Positions 59,934-62,581 of a stretch of DNA of 64,000 nucleotides are shown one piece after another. How positions within the stretch are numbered: the first letter of the stretch is position 1; each line of letters starts with the position of its first letter. The stretch is taken from assembly GCF_003334335.1 (NCBI RefSeq), contig NZ_QOWQ01000016.1. One strand, given 5' to 3'. This stretch comes from Escherichia coli. GTDB taxonomy: Bacteria > Pseudomonadota > Gammaproteobacteria > Enterobacterales > Enterobacteriaceae. A model generated the notes under the pieces. It was not told the origin of the DNA and did not search any database. It was given only the letters and a program-made list of their open reading frames with translations. A program made the position numbers and the translations under genes.

Positions 59934-62581
59934 TCAGAACTTATATTTCAGGCCCACCATCACTGCGGTGTCATTGTAGCCATTATCACCCAGCTGCACG
60001 CCCACATTCCCCAGACGCTGGCCGCTGGATTCAGGTTGCCATTTACGCCAAGTTTAATTTCCCCCAAATTACTCGCCCCATCTTGTTCGACTTTCACACC
60101 GTTCATTGAGACAGCAAAATCTTTACTGTTATGGATCCAGTTCATTTCAACAAAAGGTTCAAAGTCGTCACCGTGCGGACCGCTGTTTTTCTCCTGAGTA
60201 CGAATAAAGGTGCGGAAGCCGAGTCGGGTCTGGATGTTGTTATTTGCGTCATTCTCAATACGTGAGCCATTGGCTTCCGTGTGCGCATTATGATCGACGC
60301 CCATCCAGATAGCCTGTGCCTGTGGCTGGAAGATCCACGTATATTTCGCCGCTTCCAGACCAAAGGATTTATTCAGGGCAAAACCGTAACCCGCTTCCAG
60401 CGAGACGGTTGCACCTTTCGCGCTATAGGATTCATAGGCTAATTCATCCCCTTTCACCGAGTTTTTAAACCAGCTATATTGCGCCCAGGAGTCAATGTAT
60501 GCGCCTTTTTTACTGATGTCATCGGCAAACCAGGTGGCATACAGCCCTGCGCTATAGCCTCTGACACTCCCTTTCGAACGATAATCCGACACGCTGGAAT
60601 GAGTTAAGTTGTAGTCGCGGGCATAACCAGCCATCACTCCCAAACGCCAACTGTCACTATCGGTAAAACCACCGGTTAACAGATCGCCCCCTAACTGCGA
60701 GACGTAGCGATGCGAGGTCGTTCTCAACTGTCCGTTGCTGTCACGCCAGGCATTATGCCCGCCAATTTGACGTAGCCAAAGTCGGCTTGAACGCTCCTGT
60801 TCAGTTACAGGATCGATGTAGCGCGTTTCACCCGCACGGTCGTTCAGACGCATAACAAAAAGAGTGTTAGCAGCTGCCAGGTTAGCGACGTAACTTCCAG
60901 CTTCGGGGCGCAGGACGGGGGTAGGCGTTTCTGTTGATTCTGAATTTCCCTCTGAGCTGTTATCCTCCTCATTCACTGACTGATAACTTGTCAAATACCA
61001 GTTTTTGCCTTGTTGTTTTAGTTGATATTCGAAAGCTCCAGCTGCAATCCTTGCATCACCTTATCTGAAGGCATCTGCTGGAGATTCATCGCCATTCACA
61101 GTTATGAGTTCGATCCCGTTTAGCGTGGCCGCGCCGCTTCCTCCAGCATTTTTCACATAGACGGTAGTTGAACCCGAAGTATTACCCTCAACAATAAGTC
61201 TGTCCGTAGCCGATTTATCATCACCTAATACGGTGCGGATATTAAGCTGACCATTATTACCGACATAATTACCTTTTACGGTTAATGTTTTTCCTTGGGT
61301 AAATGTTTGACCATCATCATACGAAAGATTGATAATACTGTCTGAATTAGTCAGATGGGTAACAACGGAGTCATCTTTCATATTCCAGATTGTATTTTCT
61401 GAAAGCTTCAGCGTGGTTGTGCCGCTGACGAGTTTAGTCGCTCCATTTAGAATAGAGTCGGACGAAATTATGTTTAAGTCACCTCCAGTATTATTAACCA
61501 GAATATTATTACCAGGTGTGATAATACTTCGATTAAGGATACTTACATCCGTTGTAGTTTTGTTAACATCAATACTATCCAAAGCACTTGAAAGTTCAAC
61601 ACTTAATAGTGCTATTTTGGCTTGAGAATCGATATTTGATGCATCAATTGATATTCCTTTATCTTGTTTTGATACCGCGGTGACATTGGAAAAAAATAAC
61701 TCTCCACCATTGTATATTTTTGCAATGGGGGCTTTAGTGCCTGTTGTTGTAATAGAACTATTTTTTATATCAATGTTACCTTGTCGAATAGCAACTGCAT
61801 AACTTCCATCAGCCACAGTTTCAAGTGCCACATAATCTAAATTAATATATGCTTTTTTCCCATTAGCATAAGCACCATAGCTATTAATGCCATTAGTTGT
61901 TATGGAACCACCATTCATTTTTAAATCAGCACGGCTAATAACTTCGTAACTGTTAGAATCACTAACTTCATCATCTACAGCATCGACACATGTTCGAGAC
62001 TCTCCAGGACTTGAACATGCAAGAACACCTACTGCATTTTCCCCAGAGGTAACAATGTTCGTTTTATCTGTGGTTTCAAGACGGGTGTTATTTACCATCT
62101 TTTCAGAATCATTAACCTGGCTTAAAAGTCCCGCTGAATATGCCCCACCCGACTCGACTGAATTATCACCATTCATAAAGATGGTGCCACCAAATTCACT
62201 GACTACTGCGCTGGCTGTTATCCCTCCATTTTCTTTGTCAGATACGCTTCCAGAGGTCTTAATATCGCTATCGCTTATATATAATACTTTGTTTTGACTA
62301 TCAACAGAAATACCATAAGATCCATCACCACTAGTCATCACACTGGCATTATTTATATATCCAGTTACACCGTCATCCACTTTCACAGCATGGCTTTCGT
62401 CTTCAGTGGTTAGATACTCTCCATTACTTATCGGATTATTATCTTTGATTTCAATCGGCGATTCTTCATCAGTCATATAGGAAATTATACTATAATCATC
62501 CAACAATTGTGTTGCATATGCATTACCCACCGCCAGAGCAATAAGTCCCAAACTAAACCCGGGGAGTTTTTTCAGTTTCAT
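59934..62581 (-). pseudogene. ycgH: Disrupted autotransporter gene YcgH (N-terminal passenger fragment, C-terminal beta-domain fragment, plus a further frameshift near the 3' end)
   Basis: ORF 61061..62581 carries a signal peptide and passenger region and stops at 61061; ORF 59960..60994 continues in another frame with beta-domain sequence; the true C-terminus ...NDTAVMVGLKYKF* (stop 59934-59936) is in a third frame, implying a 1-bp indel near 60010. Confidence 0.75.

What the first reader, a model, noticed from the sequence alone, without database searches (positions are those of the whole stretch)
59934..62581. ycgH autotransporter decayed by at least two frame disruptions
The signal-peptide and passenger fragment (61061..62581) stops prematurely; the beta-domain continues in a different frame (59960..60994); and the conserved C-terminal ...MVGLKYKF motif is in a third frame, implying a further 1-bp indel near 60010. 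Together with ycgV and ycgI, this makes three autotransporter loci in the window that are broken or truncated.
Basis: seen in the sequence. Interest (0 to 1): 0.35.

Follow-up and report, generated by a model that had tools for sequence, protein, structure and literature searches.

The report
Known broken ycgH autotransporter pseudogene
This is the already annotated E. coli ycgH pseudogene, a surface-protein (autotransporter) gene disabled by one premature stop codon and one single-base deletion, so it is real but ordinary.

Summary
Window 59934..62581 (minus strand) is E. coli ycgH, a classical type Va (AIDA-I-like) autotransporter gene. It lies between ymgF and ymgD. RefSeq already marks it as a pseudogene ('frameshifted; internal stop').

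Alignment to intact 882- and 887-aa orthologues shows exactly two disabling lesions:
- A C>T substitution at window 61063 turns CAA (Gln507) into TAA.
- A T is deleted between window 60009 and 60008, in codon Gly858. The last 24 residues, including the ...MVGLKYKF end, are replaced by 15 unrelated residues.

The first lesion was misread: it is an in-frame nonsense codon, not a frame change. Only two reading frames are involved, not three.

The lesions are not sequencing errors. The TAA allele is in 1501 of 5426 complete E. coli genomes, and the exact deletion 41-mer is in 1571. The intact CAA allele is in 738 genomes, and 6 of 8 sampled are annotated as intact.

The side claim also holds in this window. 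ycgI is the 3' stump of a YpjA/EhaD-like autotransporter. ycgV is frameshifted by an extra copy of a 10-bp repeat, which K-12 lacks.

Verdict: real, already known, low interest.

The parts
59934..62581 (-). ycgH pseudogene, full ancestral extent (2648 nt; ATG at 62581..62579, ancestral TGA at 59936..59934)
   Evidence: 100% identical to ycgH of strain 300709 and 1 mismatch from a K-12 strain. Both are annotated by RefSeq as pseudogene 'frameshifted; internal stop' with the same ends.
62513..62581 (-). Predicted Sec signal peptide, codons 1-23 (MKLKKLPGFSLGLIALAVGNAYA|TQ)
   Evidence: Read from the translation: a basic N-region, a hydrophobic core and an AYA motif. No signal-peptide predictor was run, so this is an inference.
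61064..62581 (-). Fragment 1: signal peptide, passenger, and most of the autochaperone domain (codons 1-506)
   Evidence: ORF. It matches the MisL passenger (residues 138-499, E 2.8e-19) and positions 4-73 of TIGR01414.
61061..61063 (-). Lesion 1: in-frame nonsense codon TAA (Gln507 CAA>TAA; gene-strand C>T at window 61063, G>A on the + strand)
   Evidence: Alignment to intact L002 and L003, and to L004, all of which have CAA. Single-frame translation. The TAA 45-mer is in 1501 genomes and the CAA 45-mer in 738.
61019..61369 (-). Autochaperone domain (Pfam AC_1, residues 405-521 of the intact protein), cut by the TAA at codon 507
   Evidence: Pfam scan of the intact orthologue: AC_1 E 7.4e-29 and Pertactin 426-531 E 9.5e-9. 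Matches the IcsA autochaperone structures 3ML3 and 5KE1.
60003..60781 (-). Beta-barrel translocator domain (Pfam Autotransporter PF03797, residues 601-860 of the intact protein)
   Evidence: Pfam E 5.7e-41. TIGR01414 covers 429-882 in the intact protein, but only model positions 83-408 of 432 in the window's second fragment. Matches the AIDA-I transport unit 4MEE, E 2.3e-77.
60008..60009 (-). Lesion 2: site of a 1-nt deletion (T of GGT, Gly858), which shifts the frame from codon 859 onward
   Evidence: Alignment column 2589: window, K-12, B, 300709 and SUISSEKPC3NDM5 have a gap, whereas L002, L003 and L004 have T.
59960..59962 (-). Premature TGA in the shifted frame, after 15 aberrant residues (MWACSWVIMATMTPQ*)
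59937..60007 (-). Out-of-frame remnant of the last residues of the barrel (VGVQLGDNGYNDTAVMVGLKYKF, the last barrel strand with its terminal aromatic residue). The first of the 24 lost codons starts at 60008.
   Evidence: Read from the sequence and identical to the intact orthologues. Its role as the last strand and assembly signal is inferred from general knowledge of outer-membrane proteins.

Best explanation
The region is a recently inactivated copy of ycgH, a classical (type Va, AIDA-I-like) autotransporter gene of E. coli.

How the intact gene works. It encodes an 882-887-aa protein with these parts:
- a Sec signal peptide;
- a passenger of about 400 residues that evolves quickly and is probably a beta-helix;
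- an autochaperone domain;
- a linker;
- a C-terminal beta-barrel ending in ...MVGLKYKF.
The barrel inserts into the outer membrane and carries the passenger to the cell surface.

What is broken here. Two point lesions disable the gene.
- Lesion (a) is a 1-nt deletion at Gly858. It replaces the last 24 residues, that is the final barrel strand and the terminal aromatic assembly signal.
- Lesion (b) is a CAA>TAA nonsense mutation at codon 507, inside the autochaperone domain. It separates the passenger from its translocator.

Likely consequence.
- The passenger fragment could still be exported to the periplasm, but it has no barrel to carry it to the surface.
- The barrel fragment has no signal peptide and no last strand.
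- No functional surface protein can therefore be made.

Order of events. The deletion probably came first. One lineage carries it without the TAA.

Shown here: gene identity, the exact lesions, their spread among genomes, and the domain layout. Inferred: loss of function, the fate of the fragments, and the order of the lesions.
For: - Identity and synteny (pdeG-ymgF-ycgH-ymgD-ymgG-ymgI), with the RefSeq note 'frameshifted; internal stop'.
- Lesions mapped against the intact orthologues WP_122986825.1 (882 aa) and WP_001522908.1 (887 aa).
- Domains: Pfam AC_1, Pertactin and Autotransporter; TIGR01414; the AIDA-I transport unit 4MEE at E 2.3e-77.
- The window's fragments cover TIGR01414 positions 4-73 and 83-408 of 432, so the end of the barrel is missing.
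- Not an error: the TAA is in 1501 genomes and the deletion 41-mer in 1571, including K-12, B and BL21-type strains.
- Order of lesions: SUISSEKPC3NDM5 has the deletion, CAA at codon 507, and its own +T in a T-run.
- Recent decay: dN/dS of the repaired window allele against intact alleles is 0.07-0.08 in the autochaperone-barrel half and 0.53-0.54 in the passenger. This is close to intact against intact (0.03 and 0.71).
- Literature: ycgH is listed as 'pseudogene- autotransporter' (PMC4447067) and is used as a neutral integration site in W3110 (PMC12492688).
Against: - Nothing in the sequence contradicts this reading.
- Loss of function was not tested here.
- RNA polymerase binding has been reported at or near the locus. 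One report is a constitutive RpoD promoter with H-NS in the ymgF-ycgH spacer (PMC3946193). The other is a sigma-S ChIP peak assigned to ycgH (PMC4447067). The fragments may therefore still be transcribed.
- The order of the lesions rests on parsimony from one sampled strain and on allele counts. Recombination could give the same pattern.
Confidence: 0.95

Rival explanations
1. The stop codon and the frameshift are sequencing or assembly errors, and the real gene is one continuous frame.
For: None.
Against: - The same TAA 45-mer is in 1501 independently assembled complete genomes, and the same deletion 41-mer is in 1571.
- Genomes with CAA and GGT exist alongside them.
- RefSeq annotates the same two defects in K-12, B and other strains.
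Confidence: 0.01
2. The gene is expressed as a full-length protein through programmed recoding: stop-codon read-through at TAA507 plus a +1 or -1 ribosomal frameshift at codon 858.
For: Only that the rest of the sequence still looks well conserved.
Against: - Intact alleles carry an ordinary CAA and GGT at these sites, so the lesions are derived rather than conserved signals.
- Close relatives add further, different lesions: +T in SUISSEKPC3NDM5, two other stops in FCI1, an IS1 insertion, and deletions.
- Two independent recoding events in one gene would be without precedent.
Confidence: 0.01
3. The 506-aa N-terminal fragment, which keeps its signal peptide, is still made and has kept or gained a role in the periplasm. 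Alternatively, the locus acts as a regulatory or H-NS-bound DNA element rather than as a dead gene.
For: - The fragment retains the start codon and the signal peptide.
- A constitutive RpoD promoter with H-NS has been reported in the ymgF-ycgH spacer.
- A sigma-S ChIP peak has been assigned to ycgH.
- The passenger half is AT-rich, at 33-40% GC.
Against: - The fragment ends inside the autochaperone domain, so it is unlikely to fold stably.
- Other lineages break the passenger at other places or delete it.
- The locus is used routinely as a neutral integration site without reported harm.
Confidence: 0.04

Closest known systems
E. coli K-12 ycgH pseudogene (PGAP name 'autotransporter YcgH'; formerly split as ycgH_1/ycgH_2, from my own knowledge)
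   Same: - It has the same locus, the same ends and the same two lesions.
- There is 1 nucleotide difference in 2648 from K-12 strain PG20180058 and none from strain 300709.
   Different: Nothing of substance. The window as a whole is not K-12, because its ycgV carries a 10-bp repeat gain that K-12 lacks.
Intact YcgH orthologues (WP_122986825.1, 882 aa; WP_001522908.1 and WP_001563811.1, 887 aa)
   Same: About 97-97.6% nucleotide identity, the same neighbouring genes and the same domain order.
   Different: - They have CAA at codon 507 and GGT at codon 858.
- The 887-aa forms carry a 15-nt in-frame insertion after gene position 351.
- Their function has not been characterised in any paper I could find.
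AIDA-I, and the MisL / ECSE_1600 family autotransporters (type Va, AIDA-I type)
   Same: - The autochaperone and 12-strand barrel unit is homologous: 4MEE at E 2.3e-77, and NCBIfam MisL, AIDA-I and ECSE_1600 matches over residues 425-882.
- The secretion mechanism is expected to be the same.
   Different: - The scores are far below the curated cut-offs of those families (for example 433 bits against 1297 for MisL), so YcgH is not a member of them.
- The passenger is shorter and unrelated outside the region near the autochaperone domain.
ECIAI39_1904 family autotransporter adhesin (an alternative allele at the same locus)
   Same: It occupies the same chromosomal position next to ymgD. It shares the 5' end and the barrel-coding 3' part at about 97-98% identity, which is 42% of the query.
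   Different: The passenger sequence is different and is not matched by megablast. This allele is also often frameshifted or split.

Membership tests
Classical (type Va) autotransporter | N-terminal Sec signal peptide | tested here: met
   MKLKKLPGFSLGLIALAVGNAYA|TQ was read from the translation. This was by inspection only, with no predictor.
Classical (type Va) autotransporter | Passenger ending in an autochaperone or pertactin-like beta-helix segment | tested here: met
   In the intact orthologue, AC_1 covers residues 405-521 (E 7.4e-29) and Pertactin covers 426-531 (E 9.5e-9). In the window, the segment is cut at codon 507.
Classical (type Va) autotransporter | Complete C-terminal beta-barrel translocator (PF03797 / TIGR01414) | tested here: not met
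   The intact orthologue covers TIGR01414 positions 4-432 of 432. The window's fragments cover only 4-73 and 83-408, so the last 24 model positions are lost to the frameshift.
Classical (type Va) autotransporter | C-terminal aromatic residue / last-strand assembly signal in frame (...YKF) | tested here: not met
   MVGLKYKF* can be read only in the shifted frame. The in-frame product ends ...WGMWACSWVIMATMTPQ*.
Classical (type Va) autotransporter | Signal peptide, passenger and barrel in one polypeptide | tested here: not met
   An in-frame TAA at codon 507 separates them.
ycgH orthologue group (PGAP 'autotransporter YcgH') | Near-identical sequence at the ymgF-ymgD locus | tested here: met
   96.4-100% identity over the full length in the 17 full-length hits listed, out of 2143 genomes that cover at least 80% of the query, with conserved neighbours.
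Pseudogene (non-functional gene remnant) | Disabling lesions relative to intact orthologues | tested here: met
   CAA>TAA at codon 507 and a 1-nt deletion at codon 858.
Pseudogene (non-functional gene remnant) | No functional product made | not testable with these tools
   This needs proteomics, surface labelling or a genetic test. The literature only labels it a pseudogene and uses it as a neutral integration site.
MisL / AIDA-I / ECSE_1600 named families (NCBIfam) | Whole-protein score above the curated cut-off | tested here: not met
   The scores are 446 bits against a cut-off of 2335, 433 against 1297, and 288 against 1200. Only the translocator unit is shared.

The most novel reading that the evidence does not exclude
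ycgH may be lost repeatedly because selection favours its inactivation, not only because of neutral decay. Such selection could come from host immunity, phage, or the cost of a surface adhesin.

Grounds for this reading:
- Several independent lesions were seen in a small sample: the K-12-type deletion plus TAA; +T in SUISSEKPC3NDM5; two other stops in FCI1; IS1 insertions; internal deletions; and frameshifts in the alternative ECIAI39_1904 allele.
- The two neighbouring autotransporters, ycgI and ycgV, are also broken in this window.
- Intact ycgH survives in a minority of genomes, mostly from human isolates.

A weaker version of this reading is that the retained 506-aa fragment, which still has its signal peptide, is expressed and does something.
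Probability: 0.15. Interest if true: 0.3.

Novelty: already known. Interest (0 to 1): 0.07.

Why it matters
It matters little. The pseudogene status of ycgH is already in the RefSeq annotation, and the literature uses the locus as a neutral integration site.

This check adds three things:
- The finding that about two thirds of genomes with this allele type share the TAA, while an intact and uncharacterised YcgH persists in several hundred genomes.
- The pattern that all three autotransporter loci in this 64-kb stretch are defective in this strain. This fits the general picture of frequent adhesin gene loss in commensal and laboratory-type E. coli.

Tried and rejected
- **Sequencing error.** Rejected on allele counts.
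- **Frameshift-specific short queries.** Searches were not cleanly allele-specific, because megablast bridged the 1-nt gap. Only the exact-match (>=99%) bands are usable: 1571 genomes with the deletion and 1591 with the wild-type 42-mer. The wild-type count also includes the alternative passenger alleles that share the barrel.
- **Published promoter.** The string for the ymgF-ycgH spacer (TTGACA-19-TATAAG, PMC3946193) was not found in the window, either literally or with spacers of 14-24 nt. I could not place that promoter. The generic promoter scan found no convincing site upstream of the ATG.
- **Terminator.** The hairpin at 59890..59914 has its T-tail on the + strand, so it serves ymgD rather than ycgH.
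- **pdeG.** I suspected it was interrupted, because the ORF listing showed a 191-aa ORF at 63331..63906. The frame is in fact open to the window edge and identical in protein to an intact pdeG, so this was a listing artefact.
- **ycgV repeat.** I asked whether the 10-bp repeat is a common phase-variation switch. In a spread sample of 40 of 4097 matching records, all 34 rows that spanned the repeat spanned about 70 nt (2 copies) and none had 3. The 3-copy allele is therefore rare.
- **Literature searches.** Two searches for b-numbers and ECIAI39_1904 failed for lack of capacity.
- **Structure prediction and large protein-database searches.** Not run, because they would not change the verdict.

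Full report
**What is in the sequence**

On the minus strand there are two ORFs. One has 506 codons (61061..62581) and begins MKLKKLPGFSLGLIALAVGNAYATQ.... The other has 344 codons (59960..60994).

Translating 62581..59934 in one frame gives ...NGDESPADAFR*GDARIAAGAFEYQLKQQGKNWYLTSYQS... and later ...NPAASVWGMWACSWVIMATMTPQ*WWA*NISS. The two ORFs are therefore in the same frame, separated by a single TAA at 61063..61061. The distance from 61060 to 60994 is 66 nt, or 22 codons. The listed TTG at 60994 is only the first possible start codon after the stop.

The typical autotransporter ending NVGVQLGDNGYNDTAVMVGLKYKF* can be read only in a second frame. It ends with TGA at 59936..59934.

**Identity**

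A megablast of 59900..62650 against 5426 complete E. coli genomes matched in 5089 genomes, and in 2143 of them over at least 80% of the query.

The 100%-identical and near-identical hits are annotated 'ycgH: autotransporter YcgH'. They sit between ymgF and ymgD, and RefSeq flags them as pseudogene 'frameshifted; internal stop' in these strains:
- a K-12 strain;
- strain 300709;
- an E. coli B derivative.

The window's 2648 nt are identical to strain 300709 and differ at one base from the K-12 strain.

**Exact lesions**

Intact orthologues exist: 882 aa in Z1322HEC0005 and 887 aa in TOE51. Alignment to them shows two lesions.

1. Gene position 1519, which is window 61063, is T where all non-K-12-type alleles have C. 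This changes CAA (Gln507) to TAA.
2. One T is missing between window 60009 and 60008.
   - The codon was GGT (Gly858).
   - Gly858 is kept as GGA, and the frame shifts from codon 859.
   - This replaces 24 residues (NVGVQLGDNGYNDTAVMVGLKYKF) with 15 (MWACSWVIMATMTPQ), ending at the TGA at 59962..59960.

The only other length difference is a 15-nt in-frame insertion in the 887-aa alleles after gene position 351. It is harmless.

There are no further stops or indels in the window's copy.

**What the gene encodes**

The intact orthologue has these matches:
- Pfam AC_1 (autochaperone), residues 405-521, E 7.4e-29.
- Pfam Pertactin, residues 426-531.
- Pfam Autotransporter beta-domain, residues 601-860, E 5.7e-41.
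- NCBIfam TIGR01414, residues 429-882, covering positions 4-432 of 432.
- The solved AIDA-I transport unit 4MEE, E 2.3e-77, and the IcsA autochaperone structures.

Matches to MisL, AIDA-I, ECSE_1600, ShdA and YfaL are mainly to the autochaperone-barrel unit (MisL also matches part of the passenger). They fall far below the curated cut-offs. YcgH is therefore an AIDA-I-type classical autotransporter with its own passenger, and not a member of those named families.

In the window, the two fragments cover TIGR01414 positions 4-73 and 83-408. The end of the barrel is missing.

**Mechanism and consequence**

This part is inferred from established knowledge of type Va secretion. Autotransporters are reviewed in PMC9289746, which I consulted only in part.
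- The signal peptide takes the protein through Sec.
- The C-terminal barrel is inserted into the outer membrane, and this insertion depends on its last strand and terminal aromatic residue.
- The passenger is then threaded out, and its folding is seeded by the autochaperone segment.

The codon-858 frameshift removes the last strand. The TAA at codon 507 cuts the autochaperone domain and separates the passenger from the barrel. The barrel fragment has no signal peptide. Either lesion alone should abolish surface display.

**Not an error, and how widespread**

| Allele tested | Genomes |
|---|---|
| 45-mer centred on TAA | 1501 |
| Same 45-mer with CAA | 738 |
| Exact 41-mer carrying the deletion | 1571 |

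Among 8 quasi-randomly sampled CAA genomes, 6 are annotated as intact 887-aa YcgH and 2 are pseudogenes with other defects. Four of the six intact ones share one protein accession, so the sample is partly clonal.

Roughly 10% of complete genomes may therefore keep an intact gene. This is a rough estimate from a small and partly clonal sample.

**Order and age of the lesions**

Strain SUISSEKPC3NDM5 carries the same 3' deletion but has CAA at codon 507. It also has its own extra T in the T-run near window 61697. The deletion allele is also slightly more frequent than the TAA allele (1571 against 1501). Together these suggest that the deletion came first and that further lesions accumulated independently.

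| Comparison | dN/dS, autochaperone-barrel half | dN/dS, passenger |
|---|---|---|
| Repaired window allele vs intact alleles | 0.07-0.08 | 0.53-0.54 |
| Intact vs intact | 0.03 | 0.71 |

These values mean the pseudogene is young. The passenger was already evolving fast before inactivation.

The passenger half is AT-rich, at 33-40% GC, against about 50% in the barrel half.

**Diversity of the locus**

Other genomes show the following:
- Different stops: FCI1 has stops at codons 262 and 599.
- An IS1 insertion and partial deletions (H10 and H26).
- An internally deleted form of about 1.6 kb.
- An alternative passenger allele, named 'ECIAI39_1904 family autotransporter adhesin', which shares only the ends. 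It is often itself frameshifted or split.

**The side claim about ycgI and ycgV**

ycgI (about 58275..58618, minus strand) is the last ~114 codons of a 1135-aa YpjA/EhaD-like autotransporter that is intact at the same position in TOE51. A deletion of about 3.1 kb removed the rest, with its junction at window 58618. The stump also has a frameshift.

ycgV (26224..29101, plus strand) is intact in K-12 at 955 aa. In this window it carries three copies instead of two of CTGCTGATAG at 26340..26369, at the end of the signal-peptide coding region. This shifts the frame. In a spread sample of 40 of 4097 matching records, none had the third copy.

All three autotransporter loci are therefore defective in this window. 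The ycgV defect shows that the window is not from K-12.

**Literature**

- ycgH is listed as 'pseudogene- autotransporter' with a sigma-S ChIP peak (PMC4447067).
- A constitutive RpoD promoter with H-NS is reported in the ymgF-ycgH spacer (PMC3946193).
- The 'ycgH pseudogene locus' is used as a neutral integration site in W3110 engineering (PMC12492688). Other metabolic-engineering papers also mention ycgH, but I did not read them.
- I found no paper that characterises intact YcgH.

**Verdict**

The feature is real and correctly named, but it is already annotated. Novelty is 'already known' and interest is low.

Noticed in passing
window 26224..29101 (+), repeat at 26340..26369: ycgV is frameshifted in this window by a third tandem copy of the 10-bp unit CTGCTGATAG, at the end of the signal-peptide coding region. 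K-12 has two copies and an intact 955-aa gene, while strain EC416 shares the 3-copy pseudogene. In a spread sample of 40 of 4097 matching records, none had three copies, so this looks like a rare slippage mutation and not a common switch.
   Followed up: partly
window ~58275..58618 (-): ycgI is the 3' stump (about the last 114 codons, with its own frameshift) of a 1135-aa YpjA/EhaD-like autotransporter. That gene is intact at the same position in strain TOE51. A deletion of about 3.1 kb, with its junction at window 58618, removed the rest.
   Followed up: yes
ycgH locus in other genomes (L011, L012, L013): The same chromosomal site carries an alternative passenger allele (PGAP name 'ECIAI39_1904 family autotransporter adhesin'). 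It shares only the 5' end and the barrel-coding 3' part with ycgH. It too is often frameshifted, split or internally deleted, so the locus is mosaic and decays repeatedly.
   Followed up: partly
window 61456..62005 (approximate, from my own conversion of MG1655 coordinates) and 62582..62980: Published genome-wide data place a sigma-S RNA polymerase ChIP peak at ycgH (PMC4447067). They also place a constitutive RpoD promoter with H-NS in the ymgF-ycgH spacer (PMC3946193). The printed promoter hexamers could not be found in the window.
   Followed up: partly
window 59890..59914: A 9-bp GC-rich hairpin lies between the convergent ycgH and ymgD genes, with a T-run on the + strand. It is a likely ymgD terminator that sits right after the ancestral ycgH stop.
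   Followed up: no
window 63283: There is a single-base difference (A against T in the closest genomes) in the pdeG-ymgF spacer. The visible part of pdeG (63331..64000) is open to the window edge and identical in protein to an intact pdeG. The 191-aa ORF listed there is an artefact of the window edge.
   Followed up: yes
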